Shown: positions 2,445-26,840 of the stretch, piece after piece
Layout of the letters: the number at the start of each line of letters is the position of its first letter
Position numbering within the stretch: position 1 is the stretch's first letter
Notes under the pieces: model-generated
Databases searched by the model: none
What the model was told of the DNA's origin: nothing
What the model saw: only the letters and a program-made list of their open reading frames with translations
Made by a program: the position numbers and the translations under genes
Virus record (IMG/VR): IMGVR_UViG_3300040810_000833
Location: 64,001-96,055 of that record
DNA length: 32,055 bases
Strand: one strand, 5' to 3'
Source of the DNA: a virus
Lineage: Duplodnaviria; Heunggongvirae; Uroviricota; Caudoviricetes

Positions 2445-4667
2445 CTAGATTGAGCAAGCACCGCTCTCACAATCGCTTTTTTCTGTTTTACCGTCTCCGT
2501 CAGGACTGTTACAGTAATACAGATTTTTGATTCCAAGCTTGTAAGAAAGAACTTGGTCTCTAATTATAGCACTGAGTGGAACTCTACCATCCTCATAATT
2601 TTCGTAATTGTAGTAGAGGTTCAAGCTTATACTCATATCAACAAATTTCTGTAGCACAGCAGCAATATTAATCAGGCCTGCATTACTAGCCATAGAAAAC
2701 GCGGCTGTGTAATATTTTCTTCTATTTGCAAAGTTTGGCACCAACTGTTTAAGATTTCCATTCTTTGCTTTTTTCCATGACAGCAGATTTCTTACAGGCT
2801 CAATTCCGTTTGTTGAGTTTTGGATGACCGAGCTGCTCTCGCAAGGCATTATAGCTGAAACGGTCGAGTGCCTAAGTCCGAATTCTGCAATTTTTTCCCT
2901 CAAGCCCTCCCAATCCATTGAGTATTCCGGAGCGACAATATCGTCAACTGTACGCTTGTACCAATCTATAGGAAGAAGCCCTTGGGCATATTTTGTTTCA
3001 TCAAACTTTGGGCATCTGCCTTTTTCTCTAGCTAGTTCACATGACTCATTCAAAAGATTCCATTGAATCCTTTCCATGATTCCGTGAACAAACGCTGGGG
3101 CACTAGGGTCCTCGTAGGAGAGTTTTTGCTTCGCTAAAAGGCCAGCTAGGTTGGTGATGCCAATCCCGAGAGACCTTCTGTTCTTTGTGAAGTTTTCCCC
3201 TGCTTTTACTGGGTATTCCTGATAATCAATAACCGAGTCAAGCGACCTTACTGCTATTCTGCATGCAGTTTGTATCTCTTCGTCACTGACAGCCTCAAGT
3301 AGGTTTATTGCAGAGAGCATACAAATCCCAATCTCACCATTCTCGTCGTCAATAGACGTGATCGGGGTTGTTGGGTGAATTATTTCTTGGCACAAGTTTG
3401 ACATATAGACGGGGACTGACCACGATCCGTGCTGATTTGCCGTGTCAACATTCATGCTATAAATTCTTGCTGTCTCTAACCTTTCCTTTGCGTAAATACC
3501 AGCCAGCTTTCTTGCTGCTATTTTCTTCTTCATCTTTATTGTGCTTGATTTTTCATACTTCTCGTATAGACGCTCAAACTCTTCGTTATCATGAAACGCC
3601 TCGTAAAGACCTTTCGCTTCATTTGGGCTGAACAGAGTTATATCGCCTCCGTTTACAAGCCTTGAATAGAACAACCTATTGAACTGAATTGAGTAGTCTA
3701 ATTTTCTAACCCTGTTGTCATCTGTACCAGCATTGTTTTTAAGCATGAGGACGTCATCGATTTCATAATGCCAGAATGGAAAATGCACAGTTGCACCACC
3801 GCCACGAATGCCATTCTGAGTTGTCGACTTCGCTGTGGACTCAAATACTTTGAGGTACGGAATTACCCCAGTATGAATTACCTCACCACCCCTAATGGCA
3901 GAGTTTATTGGCCGGATTCGTCCAAAATTCAACCCGATCCCTGCACGTTTAGAGGTGTATCTGCCAACCGCATGATTTGACGAAAAGATACTGTCGAGGT
4001 CATCACCAACGTCGACCAAAACACAGGACGCAAACTGTCTTGTGGTTGTTCTCACCCCCGCCATTATTGGTGTTGGTAGATTTACCATAAATGTAGAATA
4101 CGCATCATAGGCGGATTTTACAGACTCGACAGTGTCAAACAGGTACATAGCAATTAAGATGTATGCAAATTGTGGCGTTTCGTATATTTGCCCAGTACGC
4201 CTGTTTTTAACCAAGTACTTGTCAACAAGCTGTTGTAGACCAGCGTATGTATACAGATTATCACGACCGTGATCAATCATCGACTCGATTTTTTTTATAT
4301 CATCTTCGGACCATTTATCCAATATTGATCCGTCGTATATTCCGTTGTCAACTCTTATCTGTAAAAAATGCAGAAAATCAGGAGGGGTGTTAGATCCCCA
4401 AACCATTTTTCTCAAGCTCATGCTCAGTAATCTGGCGGCTACATATTGATAGTTTGGTGCTGATTCTGATATTAAGTTACTTGCGGATCGGATTAGGTTG
4501 TTGTGTATGTCTTCTGTTTTCAAACCGTTAGATATTGACAGAGAAGCATTCATCTCAATATCCGAGAATGATACGCCATTTATGCCCTCGGTTGCCCACT
4601 CAAGAACCTTGTGAATCTTTTCAACATCGTAAGATTCAAATTCACCACTTCTTTTCTGAACCCGCAT
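2445..4667 (-). CDS. nrdA: Ribonucleotide reductase class Ia alpha subunit with N-terminal ATP cone
   Basis: VQKRSG ATP-cone start, PTPIMAG, SCVL, NLCQEI catalytic motif, C-terminal CESGAC; ATG at 4667 follows a GAAAGG RBS (track start is GTG 4676); uninterrupted. Confidence 0.97.
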   Translation of the reverse strand: MRVQKRSGEFESYDVEKIHKVLEWATEGINGVSFSDIEMNASLSISNGLKTEDIHNNLIRSASNLISESAPNYQYVAARLLSMSLRKMVWGSNTPPDFLHFLQIRVDNGIYDGSILDKWSEDDIKKIESMIDHGRDNLYTYAGLQQLVDKYLVKNRRTGQIYETPQFAYILIAMYLFDTVESVKSAYDAYSTFMVNLPTPIMAGVRTTTRQFASCVLVDVGDDLDSIFSSNHAVGRYTSKRAGIGLNFGRIRPINSAIRGGEVIHTGVIPYLKVFESTAKSTTQNGIRGGGATVHFPFWHYEIDDVLMLKNNAGTDDNRVRKLDYSIQFNRLFYSRLVNGGDITLFSPNEAKGLYEAFHDNEEFERLYEKYEKSSTIKMKKKIAARKLAGIYAKERLETARIYSMNVDTANQHGSWSVPVYMSNLCQEIIHPTTPITSIDDENGEIGICMLSAINLLEAVSDEEIQTACRIAVRSLDSVIDYQEYPVKAGENFTKNRRSLGIGITNLAGLLAKQKLSYEDPSAPAFVHGIMERIQWNLLNESCELAREKGRCPKFDETKYAQGLLPIDWYKRTVDDIVAPEYSMDWEGLREKIAEFGLRHSTVSAIMPCESSSVIQNSTNGIEPVRNLLSWKKAKNGNLKQLVPNFANRRKYYTAAFSMASNAGLINIAAVLQKFVDMSISLNLYYNYENYEDGRVPLSAIIRDQVLSYKLGIKNLYYCNSPDGDGKTEKSDCESGACSI

Positions 4668-5025: not shown

Positions 5026-5701
5026 CCAGTAGTCTCTTGCTCATACCTTGATAGTATCCACTGATCCTATATTTTTCTATTTTCTTGGAGTCTAGCACAA
5101 CTAGGCATGGAATTCCTTTGCTGCCTTTTTTGTATGTTTTCCACATGTCTGTGTGCTTATCCACATCCACTATTTCAATGTCATCAACAACACCATCATC
5201 AACTTCGCCGGAAGTTAGGCCAGCGTCTATCAGCTTTGGTAGCTCAAGAGACTTAAAAAGTCGACAAGGGTTGCACCAAGAGGCGGTAAAGTAAAGGATG
5301 GTTTTCCTTGATTCTGTCTGAGAGTTTATGTCTTGATCCACTTTTTTTTTAACCTCATCCGTTTCTATAGAATCTTCCGGGTATGTAGATTTATCTGGCT
5401 CCCAAGTGTTTTGGGTTGTCACGCATTCACATTTGCCGCTAGATGAATTGAGGCACTGGCATGGCGTTTTATGTCCGTCGCCATGGACAATTACCTTACT
5501 GCCATTGCAATCACACTCGCTAATGACTTCATCGTCCGTGTCGTCAACCTGACGATCCTCGTTGGCAATAAAGGCGGAATACCCCTCACTTCTGTTTATG
5601 TCGATAGATATCTCGTTTTTCTCCGAACCGAGGCTTATCTCTGGGATCGGCAGAAAACTAACAAGAAAAAACAGCAATACTATTATCGTACTCTTATTCA
5701 T
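5003..5701 (-). CDS. Exported thioredoxin-domain protein
   Basis: N-terminal signal-like hydrophobic segment, Cys-rich middle (CDC..CQC..CEC), C-terminal YFTASWCNPC and GIPCLVVLD (cis-Pro) thioredoxin motifs. Confidence 0.8.
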   Translation of the reverse strand: MNKSTIIVLLFFLVSFLPIPEISLGSEKNEISIDINRSEGYSAFIANEDRQVDDTDDEVISECDCNGSKVIVHGDGHKTPCQCLNSSSGKCECVTTQNTWEPDKSTYPEDSIETDEVKKKVDQDINSQTESRKTILYFTASWCNPCRLFKSLELPKLIDAGLTSGEVDDGVVDDIEIVDVDKHTDMWKTYKKGSKGIPCLVVLDSKKIEKYRISGYYQGMSKRLLDEFNAAQ

Positions 5702-6609
5702 TAGATAATCCTCGTGTTAATCTTTTGCGGTTTAAAGCCCTCATAACCGCTTATGGCCCAGCAGTCGCCAACTCTCAATATGTATCTTTCGAGAATGTCA
5801 GCGTCTATCCAAAAGCTGCCATCAGGTTGGTCATGACGCTTATTCCCAGCATTCCATCGGCCCCAGCTATTGGCACAGCAAACACCAGGTCTTCTATAGG
5901 CATCATCTATTCCACATAGCCACATTTGGTGATACCAAGTGCCGTACCGTCTTGCGAAGCCCTCCCTATCTCTCTTTGAGGAGAATCCTTGGCTACTGGC
6001 AATTGTTACAGCGTACCCATTAGCAATCAAGTCCCTAACTTCTTCGTAGGTTTTTACCTGAGATATTATTCCTACCGGATGTGACTTCGCGGAATCAACA
6101 AATTCTTGTGGCAGCTTGAAGCCCTTATTACCCCATTTTCTCGCACGTTCTCCACTATACTTAGACAGGTCTATTGAGCCGTACACGCCACGGGGAAGAC
6201 AGCCGTACTGACTAATATACTTAGCCGCCCATACTCCGAGAGATCCATCCCTATTACCAAGCCGCCCCTGACCTATCACATTTCTGCTACCCCAGTAGAT
6301 ATCCTCAGTGGAGGTTTCATTGACCCATAATTCATCCTCTTTTTTTAGGTAGATGTCTACGCACTTAATTGCATCTACCGCACCTGCGGCACCAAAAGCG
6401 ACACAATCGCCTATTTTCTGTTTTCTGTATGGGAAATCTCCAGCCACACGACGGATTATGTCATAAAGAAGAACTATTTTCCCCTTACCGCTTCCCTTTA
6501 TTTGACTATGGACGTCCGAGAATACGGGGTGTGGTAAATCACCCATCGCATGCTCTACTCCACGAGGATCATCCACCCACCCGAAAAGGTCAGAGTACTT
6601 ACTTTTCAT
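5701..6609 (-). CDS. Papain-like (C1 family) cysteine peptidase
   Basis: Q..GDCVAFG (catalytic Cys), WYHQM (His), ANSWG (Asn), G.FWI. Confidence 0.8.
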   Translation of the reverse strand: MKSKYSDLFGWVDDPRGVEHAMGDLPHPVFSDVHSQIKGSGKGKIVLLYDIIRRVAGDFPYRKQKIGDCVAFGAAGAVDAIKCVDIYLKKEDELWVNETSTEDIYWGSRNVIGQGRLGNRDGSLGVWAAKYISQYGCLPRGVYGSIDLSKYSGERARKWGNKGFKLPQEFVDSAKSHPVGIISQVKTYEEVRDLIANGYAVTIASSQGFSSKRDREGFARRYGTWYHQMWLCGIDDAYRRPGVCCANSWGRWNAGNKRHDQPDGSFWIDADILERYILRVGDCWAISGYEGFKPQKINTRII

Positions 6610-23544: not shown

Positions 23545-24915
23545 TCATTGGGCTTCTGCAATAAATCTCAGGAATTGATCCGACCATCCCGAAATTTCTG
23601 CATCCCATACACCCCTGTAATTAATTCCATTTTGGTGACAACTTACATCAATGATGTAGTTTTTCTTGCCAAATGGACTTGGGGCTTTATTGGTGAGGTC
23701 GCAGTCTTGGCTGTCGCTGAACACAATAACTGTGTCGGTATTCTTTTCAAGTGGTCTTAGGTGATCCATACACTGCCGTGTAAAAATACCCCCGTAGCCA
23801 GCAGCGTTCTTGTTTGCACGAATCTCTTTCATTAATCCAAAACCGCGAAGGTTAGAAACTTTAATTGTCCTGTGTGTAGTATAGCCTCCCGCTGTAATGT
23901 AAATAGAAACCCCTTCGCACATTTCTGCCGCCATCATAGCCATAGAAATTCCCACGTCAAGTCTTGTATGTTTAGATTTTACGGAAATAGGACAATTCAT
24001 ACTTCCAGACACATCAAGGACAAAAACTGTCTCCCCCTTAATTTTTGGCAGTTCTGATAAGCAACGGAACATTAAGCCTTCCAAGTCAGGCATAAAGTCC
24101 GGGGCAGCTTCTGCAGCCTTGATAAAATCAACGGGAAGCAATGCTGATGTAGAGCATTGACTGATAGCTTTTCGGATGTTGGCCTTAGATACTCCAACCT
24201 GCTGCATGTTTCGTAAATTCCTCAGAACCGCTAAGGCACCAAGGCTCCGACTAGAAATCATATCTTCCCAGATATTCTTTTTTTCCTCATCTGACTTGGC
24301 TGCTGAATAACGAACCTCCCAAGTGTCTGGAGAGGTCAGTGTGCCATTAGCTAATTCCTTAAATAACAGTGACTGCTCTTGGTCTTTTGGTTTTGGGTGT
24401 GTCAGGAACAGAATGTCACGTAGACGAATATCAGCATCTCTATTCCACTTTGAGAGTTGATATCTGTCAAAATTAACCATTGCATCAGCCATTCCAAGTC
24501 GCAGCTGTCGAGAGATAGGCGTTCTTCCTTCTCTCCAGTAAAGAGCGAGTAGTTCAGTCAGTTGATCTGGTCGTGTACATACCTGCCGCACAGTTTCACG
24601 AACGAACGGTGCGTGCGTTTTGTATCGACACATTTCACGCACAACGAGCAATGGAACATGTCGCAGCTTCTGATCTCGTCGTGCAGAGACCGCTAAATCA
24701 GCACAGAATTTACCACTAACTGTTGGAATTAACTTACAAATCTCTGAGGCGATTTCAACACCGTCTTGATATGCGTTATCTTCCCATAGCAAACAGGTAA
24801 GAACCATACGCTTCAGTTCGTTTTCGTTCGACTGATTCGCTGCACGCAGGCCTTTACCTCCAGCAAGTCTTGCTGTCTTCATTTGCGGTGTTTTTGTTCT
24901 TACGTTGGTTCTCAT
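23545..24915 (-). CDS. rsr: Ro60 / TROVE-domain RNA-binding protein
   Basis: ELKRMVLTCLLWED..Y, KLRHVP, RPDQLTELL, FDRYQLSKW, TWE, LGALAVLRNLRNM, and vWA MIDAS FVLDVSGSM...FSDSQD; AAGGAG RBS. Confidence 0.92.
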   Translation of the reverse strand: MRTNVRTKTPQMKTARLAGGKGLRAANQSNENELKRMVLTCLLWEDNAYQDGVEIASEICKLIPTVSGKFCADLAVSARRDQKLRHVPLLVVREMCRYKTHAPFVRETVRQVCTRPDQLTELLALYWREGRTPISRQLRLGMADAMVNFDRYQLSKWNRDADIRLRDILFLTHPKPKDQEQSLLFKELANGTLTSPDTWEVRYSAAKSDEEKKNIWEDMISSRSLGALAVLRNLRNMQQVGVSKANIRKAISQCSTSALLPVDFIKAAEAAPDFMPDLEGLMFRCLSELPKIKGETVFVLDVSGSMNCPISVKSKHTRLDVGISMAMMAAEMCEGVSIYITAGGYTTHRTIKVSNLRGFGLMKEIRANKNAAGYGGIFTRQCMDHLRPLEKNTDTVIVFSDSQDCDLTNKAPSPFGKKNYIIDVSCHQNGINYRGVWDAEISGWSDQFLRFIAEAQ

Positions 24916-24932: not shown

Positions 24933-24967
24933 AAAAAAAAAGAATGCACGGCATACACCGTGCATTC
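24933..24967 (-). terminator. Rho-independent terminator between the tRNA/Y RNA block and rsr
   Basis: GAATGCACGG-TGTATG-CCGTGCATTC followed by T9. Confidence 0.9.
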
Positions 24968-24982
24968 GCAAGCGTTCAAAAG

Positions 24983-25054
24983 CTGGCCAGGTAGGGATCG
25001 AACCTACAGCCCCTCGGTTAACAGCCGAGTGCTCTACCATTGAGCTACAAGCCA
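24983..25054 (-). tRNA. tRNA-Asn(GTT)
   Basis: CTCGG-CT-GTT-AA-CCGAG, canonical D and T arms, G73. Confidence 0.93.
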
Positions 25055-25060
25055 AAATTC

Positions 25061-25133
25061 GAGGTAACAAGCGAATACAGGGTTTTTGGACAGATTTTTA
25101 GTTCTGTTGATGAAGCTGTATTCTACGACACTC
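25061..25133 (-). ncRNA. Y RNA-like gene 1 (short, no tRNA domain)
   Basis: GTGTCGTAGAATACAGCTTCATC...CTGTATTCGCTTGTTACC; same scaffold as 25214-25290 and 25372-25519. Confidence 0.75.
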
Positions 25134-25136
25134 AAT

Positions 25137-25209
25137 TGTAGGATAAGGGATTCGAACCCTTAACTTCTGCTTGGAAGGCAGGCGTTTTAGCCATTGAAAC
25201 TAATCCTAC
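25137..25209 (-). tRNA. tRNA-Gly(TCC)
   Basis: CCTGC-CT-TCC-AA-GCAGA, GTAGGAT/ATCCTAC acceptor; atypical A73. Confidence 0.88.
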
Positions 25210-25213
25210 GTTT

Positions 25214-25290
25214 CTTACCAGAAGGCAACATTCGATTACAGCTTTTTACCTATAAAACGATGAATCTGCAATCTACAGCACTTTAGTAAG
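25214..25290 (-). ncRNA. Y RNA-like gene 2 (short, diverged Ro-binding motif)
   Basis: GTGCTGTAGATTGCAGATTCATC...TAAAAAG-CTGTAATCGAATGTTGCC with outer CTTACTA/TGGTAAG stem. Confidence 0.7.
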
Positions 25291-25293
25291 AAT

Positions 25294-25364
25294 TGGGGAT
25301 ACGGGAGTCGAACCCGCTGTCTTCGGCTTATGAGGCCGCTATGTAAACCGTTTCACTCATCCCC
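25294..25364 (-). tRNA. tRNA with CAT anticodon (elongator Met or lysidine Ile2)
   Basis: GCGGC-CT-CAT-AA-GCCGA; paired G1-C72 and no three G-C anticodon pairs, so not initiator. Confidence 0.88.
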
Positions 25365-25371
25365 TACAATA

Positions 25372-25519
25372 AAAGAGAGGTAACATTCGGTGCGAGAATT
25401 TTTAGCGTGCTACCGTTACACTACCGACCCACCAGCACGACGGCGGTGGACCAGGCTGGATTCGAACCAGCACAGCTCGATTAACATTCGATGAATCTCA
25501 CATCTTCGACACTCTCTTT
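25372..25519 (-). ncRNA. yrlA: YrlA-type Y RNA with a permuted tRNA-like domain
   Basis: GTCGAAG Ro60-binding motif in the terminal stem; T arm GCTGG-TTCGAAT-CCAGC, loop-closed acceptor stem, D arm TA-GTGT-AACGGTA-GCAC in T-acceptor-D order; near rsr and rtcB. Confidence 0.85.
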
Positions 25520-25525
25520 GTCTCA

Positions 25526-25774
25526 TTATAGACAAACTGTTTTGTTTGTCAACTGCTTTTCTACGATTTTTTCATTTTCATAATTATTTCGCCGCCTATC
25601 AAATGAATCAGAAATGTACGATGTTGCAACGGCAAACTGAAAGGCGAATGCGATACAGGCTGCGTAAAACGCAGCCTCTGCCCAGTCGCTCTCTTGTTCC
25701 GAAAGCCAGTTAATCAAAAATGGCGACCCGACCAATACAGCATTGAATTGAAATGCATTAAATACTTTCATCAT
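25526..25774 (-). CDS. Hypothetical membrane protein
   Basis: 82 aa with hydrophobic segments, directly downstream of rtcB; GAGGA RBS. Confidence 0.55.
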   Translation of the reverse strand: MMKVFNAFQFNAVLVGSPFLINWLSEQESDWAEAAFYAACIAFAFQFAVATSYISDSFDRRRNNYENEKIVEKQLTNKTVCL

Positions 25775-25787
25775 TTTACTTTCCTCG

Positions 25788-26840
25788 CTATCCTTTAATG
25801 TTTAAAATTGGGCGAATATAATCCACCACATCAACAGAGTCCACCTGAAGTTCCATGACTTCAAAGATATTTTTATACGCCATCGGCGATTCGTCAAGGG
25901 TATCTTTAGAAATATTTGCACAAACGCCAATCATTTGCTGCTTAAATTCTTCAATAGATAGTTTTCTTTTTGCCTCTTTTCTTCCATAGACTCGACCAGC
26001 ACCGTGAGAAGACGAACATATCCAGTCTGGATTGCCCTTACCTCTAACAATAAATGATCCATCACGCATATTTCCAGGAATCACACCCATCATTCCGTCT
26101 TCGGCGTGCGTGGCCCCTTTTCTATGAATCCATCCTCCATCCTTTAGTTCTGCGTGATTGTGGTTGCGGTTTACGGTTTCGATTATATCTCCGTCAATAA
26201 CGCTTGCCGCAGCTTGAGCCATCGCGAGTCGCGAATCCAAGGCATATTGTAGGCAAAATGCAAGATCATTCATGTAGTCGTCATGATCCTGACTTCCAAC
26301 CTCTAGGTGTGCATTGCAGTTCTTAATGTACCAAGAGGCAACGGAATGACCAAAGCCCCTAGATCCGGAATGAACCACAACCCATAAATGATTGTCGCGA
26401 CCCCTACCGACTTCGACGAAATGATTACCCCCGCCAAGAGTCCCGAGTTGCTTCAAGAATTTTTCCTTTTGATCTCTCCAAACTCTAAGACCAGGTGTGT
26501 CTTCTGTCGGATCATCATATGTTCTAATTCTCTCGTGGCAATTAAAGCCTACTGGAATCAGTTTTTCAATATCTGACTTGATCTTTGCTGCTTTATTCTG
26601 ATCAATATCAGTCGTGCTGTCAAGCTTTAACGCAGTCATTCCACAGCCAATATCAAATCCAACCCATGCAGGAACAACGACACCATCAGTCTTTACAACA
26701 GCACCAATCGGCAAATCATACCCTTGGTGTGCATCCGGCATTAATGCCCCATCAATAGCGAAATCAAAAGACATGCAGTTATCCATCTGGGTAACGGCAC
26801 CTTCTTCAAGAATCTCTGCGTATACACGGTACTTTGACAT
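25788..26840 (-). CDS. rtcB: RtcB RNA ligase
   Basis: MPDAH.G, VGFDIGCG, TLGGGNHFVE, HSGSRG, HNH, HRKGAT, IPGNM, SSSHGAGR, DESPMAYK. Confidence 0.96.
   Translation of the reverse strand: MSKYRVYAEILEEGAVTQMDNCMSFDFAIDGALMPDAHQGYDLPIGAVVKTDGVVVPAWVGFDIGCGMTALKLDSTTDIDQNKAAKIKSDIEKLIPVGFNCHERIRTYDDPTEDTPGLRVWRDQKEKFLKQLGTLGGGNHFVEVGRGRDNHLWVVVHSGSRGFGHSVASWYIKNCNAHLEVGSQDHDDYMNDLAFCLQYALDSRLAMAQAAASVIDGDIIETVNRNHNHAELKDGGWIHRKGATHAEDGMMGVIPGNMRDGSFIVRGKGNPDWICSSSHGAGRVYGRKEAKRKLSIEEFKQQMIGVCANISKDTLDESPMAYKNIFEVMELQVDSVDVVDYIRPILNIKG

What the first reader, a model, noticed from the sequence alone, without database searches (positions are those of the whole stretch)
25061..25519. Three paralogous Y-RNA-like genes strictly alternating with tRNAs
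Seen: order tRNA-Asn / Y1 / tRNA-Gly / Y2 / tRNA-CAT / Y3. All three share GTG(TC/CT)G(T/A)AG-stem-TTCATC-[insert]-AAAAA-NN-stem-CG-(CT/AA)-TGTT(A/G)CC. Stems covary (AATACAG/CTGTATT, ATTGCAG/CTGTAAT, TGTGAG/CTCGCA), while inserts are 17, 28 and about 93 nt. Established: bacterial Y RNAs bind Ro60 through a GNCGAAN0-1G stem and use the other end as an effector module. Inference: one Ro60 with interchangeable Y RNA modules, released by RNase P and 3' tRNA processing of the flanking tRNAs; the two minimal forms may be a new Y RNA subclass.
Basis: partly seen in the sequence, partly recalled or inferred. Interest (0 to 1): 0.85.

Follow-up and report, generated by a model that had tools for sequence, protein, structure and literature searches.

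The report
Phage Y RNAs interleaved with tRNAs
An aquatic phage encodes three small "Y RNA" partners for its Ro60 RNA-binding ring protein, each filling the gap between two tRNA genes in one transcription unit; this is a clean new example of a known RNA-surveillance system, not a new kind of system.

Summary
Both shared motifs occur exactly three times in the 32 kb window, only at these sites (0.02 and 0.18 expected by chance).

On the minus strand the order is: consensus promoter, Y3, tRNA-CAT, Y2, tRNA-Gly, Y1, tRNA-Asn, terminator, then the Ro60 (TROVE) gene. rtcB lies upstream.

A covariance model built from these copies finds 133 relatives beside TROVE genes in 57 of 65 sources, plus 80 more in MAG contigs. 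Every hit is on the TROVE strand, and covariation is strong. A motif scan of all viral contigs that did not use TROVE gave 20 loci, and 17 have a TROVE gene within 824 nt downstream.

Lengths are bimodal. Long forms carry a permuted tRNA-like module (Y3, YrlA-type); short forms do not (Y1 and Y2, YrlB-like). Exact abutment to tRNAs is enriched but seen in a minority of loci (13).

Short Y RNAs, several Y RNAs per Ro60, phage Ro60-Y RNA pairs and a Y-tRNA-Y precursor in Deinococcus are all published. Ro60 binding and release by tRNA processing remain inferences.

This scan has already reported similar phage Ro60/Y-RNA arrays on other DNA. Verdict: new member of a known kind, moderate interest.

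The parts
25525..25552 (-). Sigma-70-type promoter of the Y RNA/tRNA array: TTGACA, 16 nt, TATAAT
   Evidence: 12 of 12 consensus matches. Conserved in relative L003. The -10 box holds the stop codon of the upstream 82-aa ORF.
25366..25519 (-). Y3: long, YrlA-type Y RNA. It has a closing stem, a bulged-helix handle (GUCGAAG), a second stem, then a permuted tRNA-like module of T-arm, 12-bp capped stem and D-arm.
   Evidence: R2 model 48.7 bits, E 1.5e-8, at 25517-25371. Rfam YrlA matches only the tRNA-like core, 25477-25404, 19.3 bits, below the threshold of 69. Fold. A compensatory C-G to U-A change in the capped stem is seen in L003.
25293..25365 (-). tRNA with CAU anticodon and an A1.A72 mismatch
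   Evidence: Rfam tRNA 46.3 bits. Not called by ARAGORN.
25210..25292 (-). Y2: short Y RNA with a 17-nt apical segment and an extended closing stem that reaches both tRNA borders
   Evidence: R2 58.1 bits, E 7e-11. Fold -21.6 kcal/mol, z -3.3.
25137..25209 (-). tRNA-Gly(UCC)
   Evidence: ARAGORN. Rfam 62.3 bits.
25055..25136 (-). Y1: short Y RNA with a 28-nt apical segment
   Evidence: R2 61.7 bits, E 9e-12. Fold z -3.0.
24982..25054 (-). tRNA-Asn(GUU)
   Evidence: ARAGORN. Rfam 67.7 bits.
24942..24967 (-). Intrinsic terminator: 11-bp stem followed by a run of nine U
   Evidence: Conserved in L003. No promoter-like site lies between it and the rsr start.
23545..24915 (-). rsr: Ro60/TROVE-vWA protein, 456 aa, the presumed protein partner
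   Evidence: Pfam TROVE 4.9e-15. It is the only TROVE gene in the 96 kb record. The closest solved structure is Thermus phage phiLo Ro60, 9KOP/9L5Y, E 1.2e-17. The MIDAS motif DxSGS is invariant in the alignment.
25788..26840 (-). rtcB RNA ligase, upstream neighbour (context only)
   Evidence: Pfam RtcB 5.1e-75. RtcB lies near TROVE in only 5 of 104 related loci.

Best explanation
The three elements are Y RNA genes that serve the phage's single Ro60 (Rsr) protein. Y3 is a YrlA-type RNA with a permuted tRNA-like module. Y1 and Y2 are short stem-bulge-stem forms.

All three share one handle:
- a variable 5-bp closing stem made by the 5' and 3' ends;
- a conserved bulged U;
- two covarying Watson-Crick pairs;
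- a pyrimidine-U mismatch;
- an invariant G.U pair;
- a small internal loop;
- a covarying 8-bp second stem;
- a conserved single-stranded UWCWUC at the start of the apical region and an A-run at its end.

The three Y RNAs and three tRNAs are made as one precursor. It starts at a consensus sigma-70 promoter and ends at an intrinsic terminator just upstream of rsr. rsr itself is probably expressed by read-through.

Because each Y RNA fills a whole tRNA-tRNA spacer, RNase P cleavage at the next tRNA would set its 3' end. Endonucleolytic 3' maturation of the preceding tRNA, which lacks an encoded CCA, would set its 5' end. Y3 would begin at the transcription start.

Ro60 would bind the common handle. 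The different apical modules would tether or gate Ro60 for different partners or substrates, inside a phage island for RNA repair and translation rescue.

Shown here: the sequence family, covariation, linkage to TROVE, abutment to tRNAs, and the promoter and terminator consensus. Inferred: Ro60 binding, the processing route and the biological role.
For: Motifs are unique to the three sites.

Model R1, built from 8 seeds, gave 77 hits, all on the TROVE strand, in 648 kb.

Model R2 gave 154 hits in 1.02 Mb, again all on the TROVE strand. In a whole 306 kb phage, hits lie only within about 9 kb of TROVE. There are none in the other 64 kb of this phage's own record.

R2 also gave 80 same-strand hits in TROVE loci from MAGs.

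Covariation: 89.5% of cells are paired against 57% when shuffled. The covariation score is 0.83 against 0.20, with 0 of 500 shuffles as high, and slid registers score 0.18 or less. Pair 8-243 is GC 96 / AU 35. Pair 9-242 is GC 110 / UA 12 / CG 8.

A handle pattern scan of 2.9 million viral contigs that did not use TROVE found 20 loci. Seventeen have TROVE 12-824 nt downstream on the same strand, and one more has it elsewhere in the record.

R2 gave no hit in 150 other bacterial genomes, of which 149 showed no TROVE match.

Lengths are bimodal. A T-loop motif is present in 34 of 46 long forms and 5 of 87 short forms. Long forms in cultured phages match Rfam YrlA over its full length at E 2.8e-9 and 2.3e-6.

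Abutment to same-strand tRNAs: 20 of 133 hits against a random mean of 1.2 and maximum of 6. The same alternation is seen in L003, L005 and L006.

Promoter and terminator.

Literature: at least two Y RNAs per species, and a Yrn2-tRNA-Asp-Yrn1 precursor (PMC4201824). Phage phiLo Ro60 binds two upstream Y-like RNAs (PMC12135203).
Against: No direct evidence of expression, RNA ends or Ro60 binding was obtained.

None of the three reaches the Rfam YrlA threshold (19.3 against 69 bits).

Y1 and Y2 lack the literal GNCGAAN0-1G/CGAA motif, as do 128 of 133 family members.

R2 does not detect a canonical YrlA that passes the Rfam threshold. The link to validated Y RNAs therefore rests on architecture and on sub-threshold YrlA matches.

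Most loci were fetched through TROVE, so part of the association is by construction. The scan corrects for this only for one handle variant.

One phage type (L148/L162) has two family members upstream of terminase genes with no TROVE in the fragment held.

Most family members (113 of 133) do not abut a tRNA, so tRNA-coupled release cannot be general.

The Y3 fold is not better than shuffled sequence (z -0.9).
Confidence: 0.78

Rival explanations
1. Y1 and Y2 are structured spacers of a tRNA operon, acting as processing or insulating hairpins that help RNase P, E or Z separate the tRNAs. They have no role with Ro60. Only Y3 is a true Y RNA.
For: They fill tRNA-tRNA spacers exactly. They lack the CGAA motif. 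In the fold of the whole precursor they form independent modules between tRNAs.
Against: The same handle is found in 113 family members that do not touch any tRNA. It is shared with the YrlA-type long forms in the same loci. It tracks TROVE genes in position and strand. Ordinary tRNA spacers would not conserve an invariant G.U pair, a bulged U and a UWCWUC motif across Ro60 proteins only 42-90% identical.
Confidence: 0.07
2. The RNAs are ligands or substrates of another factor rather than of Ro60. Candidates are the neighbouring RtcB ligase, a host tRNA-modifying or tRNA-processing enzyme, or host PNPase. Linkage to TROVE would then reflect only a shared RNA-repair island.
For: rtcB lies directly upstream and an ATP-dependent RNA ligase, tmRNA and many tRNAs lie nearby. 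The most invariant positions are in the single-stranded UWCWUC motif, outside the bulged helix.
Against: RtcB is within the held flanks of only 5 of 104 TROVE loci, the RNA ligase of 2, and the 82-aa ORF of none, while the RNAs are present in most. TROVE is the only constant neighbour, typically within 1 kb on the same strand. Published Ro60 proteins bind RNAs of exactly this architecture (PMC4201824, PMC12135203).
Confidence: 0.08
3. The short copies are decaying duplicates of the YrlA-type gene that have lost the tRNA-like module and are no longer functional.
For: They share the handle with Y3 and differ mainly by a shorter apical insert.
Against: Both stems covary among paralogues and orthologues, so pairing is kept while sequence changes. 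Y1 and Y2 are retained with compensatory changes in L003, whose Ro60 is 90% identical. Short forms are the majority class across the family, 87 of 133.
Confidence: 0.04

Closest known systems
Bacterial Rsr-Y RNA systems: S. Typhimurium and M. smegmatis YrlA/YrlB, D. radiodurans Yrn1/Yrn2 (Chen et al. 2014, PMC4201824; Rfam RF02553 YrlA)
   Same: ncRNAs are encoded within a few kb of rsr on the same strand. There are at least two per locus, one with a tRNA-like module (T-arm, D-arm, capped acceptor-like stem) and others that are plain hairpins. The 5' and 3' ends pair into a bulged helix with a 5'-strand motif (Y3: GUCGAAG). They are processed from a common precursor, which in D. radiodurans also contains a tRNA (Yrn2-tRNA-Asp-Yrn1). 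rtcB is a neighbour, as in the Salmonella rsr-yrlBA-rtcBA operon.
   Different: No copy passes the Rfam YrlA threshold (19.3 bits). The handle consensus of this phage family (bulged U, RN pairs, Y.U mismatch, invariant G.U) lacks CGAA in 128 of 133 members. My model does not detect a canonical YrlA. Here there are three Y RNAs and three tRNAs in strict alternation with borders 0-2 nt apart, driven by a constitutive-looking sigma-70 promoter rather than a stress-regulated one.
Thermus phage phiLo Ro60 with Yrl1 and Yrl2 (PMC12135203; PDB 9KOP, 9L5Y)
   Same: A phage-encoded Ro60 with more than one stem-bulge-stem Y-like RNA encoded just upstream. It is the closest solved structure to the window's Ro60 (E 1.2e-17). 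Binding of both RNAs to the phage Ro60, and ternary complexes with host PNPase, were shown in vitro.
   Different: The phiLo RNAs were picked by their CGAA motif. No tRNA-like module or interleaving with tRNAs is described in the parts of the paper I read. I did not compare the phiLo RNA sequences with my model.
Unannotated members of the same RNA family in cultured phages: Xanthomonas phage MET23-P3 (5 copies), Caulobacter phage CcrColossus (8 copies), Bacteroides phage crAss001 (3 copies)
   Same: They match the same covariance model (24-61 bits) on the TROVE strand, in the unannotated gaps beside the TROVE gene. They mix short and long forms. The long forms match Rfam YrlA over its full length below threshold (52.3 and 42.3 bits). 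The phiLo paper cites Chen et al. 2014 as having reported Y-like RNAs in CcrColossus.
   Different: Their Ro60 proteins are only 37-44% identical to the window's. The arrays are mostly back to back rather than alternating with tRNAs. None of these RNAs is annotated in the records.

Membership tests
Y RNA (Ro60-associated ncRNA, functional class) | Encoded close to, and on the same strand as, a Ro60/TROVE gene | tested here: met
   Y1 ends 140 nt upstream of the rsr start, on the same strand. The same holds for all 133 plus 80 family hits and for 17 of 20 loci found without using TROVE.
Y RNA (Ro60-associated ncRNA, functional class) | The 5' and 3' ends pair into a long stem that contains a conserved bulged helix (stem-bulge-stem) | tested here: met
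   Folds. Family-wide covariation in both stems, with a conserved bulged U (130 of 133) and an invariant G.U pair.
Y RNA (Ro60-associated ncRNA, functional class) | GNCGAAN0-1G (CGAA) motif on the 5' strand | tested here: inconclusive
   Y3 has GUCGAAG, so it meets the feature. Y1 has GUCGUAG and Y2 has GCUGUAG, so they do not. Only 5 of 133 family members carry the literal motif.
Y RNA (Ro60-associated ncRNA, functional class) | Bound by Ro60, with accumulation dependent on Ro60 | not testable with these tools
   Needs EMSA or RIP and an rsr deletion. The tools offer no RNA-protein docking.
Rfam RF02553 YrlA | Score at or above the gathering threshold of 69 bits | tested here: not met
   The best match is 19.3 bits, E 0.45, for Y3 and covers only model positions 24-84. 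None passes in 13 related loci.
Rfam RF02553 YrlA | Permuted tRNA-like module: T-arm, capped acceptor-like stem, D-arm | tested here: met
   Met by Y3 only. It has T-arm GCUGG-UUCGAAU-CCAGC, a 12-bp capped stem, and UA followed by a D-arm. Y1 and Y2 have no such module.
YrlB/Yrn2-type short Y RNAs (Chen et al. 2014) | [quoted passage not shown] | tested here: inconclusive
   The long hairpin is present. The apical segments are 17 and 28 nt between UUCAUC and the stem, and are A/U-rich rather than clearly pyrimidine-rich (direct reading). No public sequence model for YrlB or Yrn2 exists to test against.
Polycistronic Y RNA-tRNA precursor (D. radiodurans Yrn2-tRNA-Asp-Yrn1) | Y RNAs and tRNA(s) lie in one transcription unit | tested here: inconclusive
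   One consensus promoter upstream of Y3, one intrinsic terminator after tRNA-Asn, and no other strong signals between them. Metatranscriptome contigs could not show transcript structure.

The most novel reading that the evidence does not exclude
These RNAs belong to a large phage-borne Y RNA lineage with its own handle (bulged U, tandem non-canonical pairs, invariant UWCWUC), not covered by Rfam. In this reading, arrays of 2-8 copies with different apical modules act as exchangeable adaptors that retarget one phage Ro60. Targets might include host exoribonucleases or cleaved tRNAs during conflict with host anticodon nucleases. In the window's sub-lineage, production would be hard-wired to tRNA maturation, so that Y RNAs and phage tRNAs are made in fixed proportion.
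Probability: 0.15. Interest if true: 0.7.

Novelty: new member of a known kind. Interest (0 to 1): 0.38.

Why it matters
The locus adds a compact example to the Ro60/Y RNA field: one promoter, three Y RNAs with three different apical modules, three tRNAs, one terminator and one Ro60 gene.

The family model shows that unannotated relatives sit beside the TROVE genes of cultured phages (crAss001, CcrColossus, Xanthomonas phages). In those phages, binding, processing and function could be tested directly.

It also shows that the published CGAA rule for spotting Y RNAs misses most members of this phage family, and that Rfam's YrlA model does not reach them.

It does not change the current picture of what Ro60 and Y RNAs are.

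Tried and rejected
1. blastn of the array against 50,697 phage records found only tRNA matches. The single-protein locus search in viral contigs found nothing. Relatives came from the protein search and the alignment-based scans instead.

2. Rfam at gathering thresholds reported only tRNAs in the window and in 13 related loci.

3. The genome search with the RNA model on five large viral records lost hits that direct cmsearch finds, because of its first-look filter. I therefore fetched a whole 306 kb phage and the rest of this phage's record and searched them directly.

4. Expression. Four metatranscriptome runs hold parts of the stretch as low-depth Logan contigs, including the coding genes rsr and rtcB.
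- Contigs cannot show ends, strand or level.
- Three runs have next to no cover over about 25194-25520.
- Contigs of two runs stop at 25521/25522, next to the predicted start site. I laid no DNA run for comparison.
- An 87-nt 'skip' joint (25057 to 25145, side 28, depth 233) is probably another organism's tRNA.
- I drew no conclusion from any of this.

5. R2 does not detect a canonical YrlA that passes the Rfam threshold, nor other sub-threshold YrlA loci in Gammaproteobacteria. There is therefore no direct handle-level bridge to validated Y RNAs.

6. Handle variants are more uniform within a locus than after shuffling (34, 37 and 36 of 47 loci against 24, 29 and 23). Stem identity within a locus is raised too, so paralogy confounds this.

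7. The supplementary tables of Chen et al. 2014, which hold the phage coordinates, are not held. Two Wolin-lab reviews were also not held.

8. In the whole-precursor MFE fold, Y2, tRNA-Gly and Y1 form separate modules, but Y3, tRNA-CAT and tRNA-Asn are mispaired over long range. This gives weak support only.

9. My first model used a wrong register for two handle pairs (7-242 and 8-241). Covariation showed the right one is 8-243 and 9-242, with U7 bulged.

Full report
**What is in the window**

The window is the last 32 kb of a 96 kb IMG/VR virus record, estimated 63% complete. DNA runs that hold the stretch come from estuary, marsh and other aquatic metagenomes.

Every feature of the finding is on the minus strand. 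In the order of transcription:
- rtcB at 26840-25788 (Pfam RtcB, 5e-75);
- an 82-aa ORF at 25774-25526;
- a 12/12 consensus promoter, TTGACA-16-TATAAT, at 25552-25525;
- Y3 at about 25519-25366;
- a tRNA with anticodon CAU at 25365-25293;
- Y2 at 25292-25210;
- tRNA-Gly(UCC) at 25209-25137;
- Y1 at 25136-25055;
- tRNA-Asn(GUU) at 25054-24982;
- an intrinsic terminator at 24967-24942;
- a 456-aa TROVE/vWA protein (Ro60, rsr) at 24915-23545.

No promoter-like site lies between the terminator and rsr. rsr is therefore probably read from the same promoter by read-through. That is an inference.

**Check of the observation**

Shuffles give 0.02 and 0.18 on average. The quoted stems and the insert lengths of 17, 28 and 93 nt are exact.

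Y1 and Y2 fold as closed stem-bulge-stem hairpins with z-scores of -3.0 and -3.3. Y3 adds a T-arm (GCUGG-UUCGAAU-CCAGC), a 12-bp capped stem rich in G.U pairs, and a D-arm. Rfam's YrlA model aligns to this tRNA-like core, but at only 19.3 bits.

The three Y elements fill the whole spacers. Y2 and Y1 start on the nucleotide after the discriminator base of the preceding tRNA, and each element ends just before the first base of the next. None of the three tRNAs encodes CCA (direct reading).

**Comparative evidence that this is a real RNA family tied to Ro60**

A metagenomic contig whose Ro60 is 90% identical (L003) keeps the whole arrangement. It shows compensatory changes, for example CCACC/GGUGG becoming CCAUC/GAUGG in the capped stem of Y3. 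Contigs at 68%, 65% and 55% Ro60 identity (L004, L005, L006) also interleave such elements with tRNAs.

A covariance model built from 8 short copies (R1) gave 77 hits at E below 1 in 648 kb of TROVE loci from viral contigs. All were on the TROVE strand.

A second model built from 44 hits (R2) gave:
- 154 hits in 1.02 Mb, again all on the TROVE strand;
- in a complete 306 kb phage, hits only within about 9 kb of TROVE;
- no hit in the other 64 kb of this phage's own record.

In 40 TROVE loci from MAG contigs, R2 gave 80 hits, all co-oriented with TROVE.

On the 133 hits with E of 1e-3 or less, the two helices are 89.5% paired, against 57% after shuffling. The covariation score is 0.83 against 0.20, and slid registers fall to 0.18 or less.

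**The handle**

Covariation corrected my first register. The handle is:
- a 5-bp variable closing stem;
- a bulged U (130 of 133);
- two Watson-Crick pairs (GC 96 / AU 35, and GC 110 / UA 12 / CG 8);
- a Y.U mismatch;
- an invariant G.U pair;
- a small internal loop;
- an 8-bp covarying stem;
- a single-stranded UWCWUC, invariant at four positions in 129-133 of 133 members;
- an A-run before the 3' strand of the second stem.

**Is the link to TROVE only an effect of how the loci were fetched?**

To answer this I scanned all 2.9 million viral contigs for one handle variant without using TROVE.

Of 20 loci, 17 have a TROVE gene 12-824 nt downstream on the same strand. One more has TROVE elsewhere in a complete 97 kb genome. 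The other two are fragments of one phage type, estimated 3% and 12% complete. In these, two family members sit upstream of terminase genes.

R2 had no hit in 150 other bacterial genomes, and 149 of these showed no TROVE match. That search scores only pre-filtered candidates.

RtcB lies within the flanks of only 5 of 104 TROVE loci, and the RNA ligase of 2. TROVE, not RtcB, is therefore the constant neighbour.

**Anatomy across the family**

Fifty-seven of 65 sources have hits, and 47 of those 57 have two or more copies (up to 6 in these loci, 8 in CcrColossus).

Lengths are bimodal, about 70-90 nt and about 130-150 nt. A T-loop motif is present in 34 of 46 long forms and in 5 of 87 short forms.

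A long tRNA-like form plus short forms is therefore the usual set. This matches what Chen et al. [quoted passage not shown]

Abutment to a same-strand tRNA (12 nt or less) holds for 20 of 133 hits in 13 loci, against a random mean of 1.2 and a maximum of 6. It is real and enriched, but it is a minority arrangement. Strict alternation is a trait of the window's own sub-lineage.

**Comparison with what is known**

- Y3 has the literal GNCGAAN0-1G motif (GUCGAAG). Y1, Y2 and 128 of 133 family members do not.
- No copy passes the Rfam YrlA threshold.
- R2 does not detect a canonical YrlA that passes that threshold.
- Long family members in cultured phages do match YrlA over its full length, at E 2.8e-9 (Xanthomonas phage MET23-P3) and 2.3e-6 (CcrColossus).
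- The phiLo paper cites Chen et al. 2014 as having reported Y-like RNAs in CcrColossus.
- The nearest solved protein is Thermus phage phiLo Ro60. It binds two upstream Y-like RNAs and forms complexes with host PNPase in vitro.
- D. radiodurans makes Yrn2, tRNA-Asp and Yrn1 as one precursor.

Several Y RNAs per Ro60, short forms, phage systems and co-transcription with a tRNA are thus all published.

What this locus adds is a three-plus-three alternation with exact borders under a consensus promoter, and membership of a large phage family whose handle differs from the published motif and has no Rfam model. This scan has already reported similar phage arrays on other DNA.

**Mechanism, with its status**

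- Shown: the family, its covariation, its linkage to TROVE, and the exact fit into tRNA spacers.
- Inferred: one precursor; Y 3' ends set by RNase P at the next tRNA; Y 5' ends set by endonucleolytic 3' maturation of the preceding CCA-less tRNA, or by the transcription start for Y3; Ro60 binding through the common handle; apical modules as tethers or gates.
- Expression could not be established. Metatranscriptome contigs cover the locus at low depth, including coding genes, and cannot show ends.

**Verdict**

This is a new member of a known kind, of moderate interest. Its main use is as a compact test case and as a pointer to unannotated relatives in cultured phages.

Noticed in passing
window 25293-25365 (-): The tRNA with anticodon CAU has an A1.A72 mismatch, which is A1.C72 in relative L003, and a weak D-stem. 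ARAGORN does not call it, while Rfam gives 46 bits. A 1:72 mismatch is a mark of bacterial initiator tRNA, but only two of the three G-C pairs typical of the initiator anticodon stem are present.
   Followed up: partly
L005 379-476 and L004 1-57: A homologue of that tRNA-CAT, with the same 5' GGGAUAGAGUGAAACGG and 3' end, carries an extra hairpin of about 25 nt between the D-arm and the anticodon arm. ARAGORN does not call it. It sits between two Y-like RNAs.
   Followed up: no
window 25525-25552 (-): The -10 box TATAAT of the Y/tRNA promoter contains the TAA stop codon of the upstream 82-aa ORF. The spacer between the -35 and -10 boxes is a perfect palindrome, GACAAAC-N6-GTTTGTC, also present in L003. 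It may be an operator or a terminator for the upstream unit.
   Followed up: no
alignment A4, columns 27-33 (window: UUCAUC at 25114-25109, 25264-25259, 25495-25490): The single-stranded motif UWCWUC just after the second stem is the most invariant part of the family (U, C, U invariant in 133 of 133; final C in 129 of 133). It is more conserved than the bulged helix, and its role is unknown.
   Followed up: partly
L146 (Caulobacter phage CcrColossus) 3079-3246; L144 (crAss001) 5430-6149; L145 (Xanthomonas phage MET23-P3) 3282-3880: The unannotated gaps beside the TROVE genes of cultured phages hold 8, 3 and 5 family members. In CcrColossus an annotated tRNA-Gln (3083-3150) lies inside a long family hit and may be the tRNA-like module of a Y RNA. 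In crAss001 an unannotated 144-nt tRNA-like match (5606-5749) follows a Y-like hit directly.
   Followed up: partly
L148 4982-5227 and L162 9086-9331: Two family members (57 and 38 bits) lie upstream of the small and large terminase genes, with no TROVE gene in the fragments held. The fragments are estimated 12% and 3% complete.
   Followed up: partly
G011:C34:77838-77969 (L134): A gammaproteobacterial genome has a YrlA that passes the Rfam threshold (69.4 bits) but no Pfam TROVE match at E of 1e-5 or less in the genome search.
   Followed up: no
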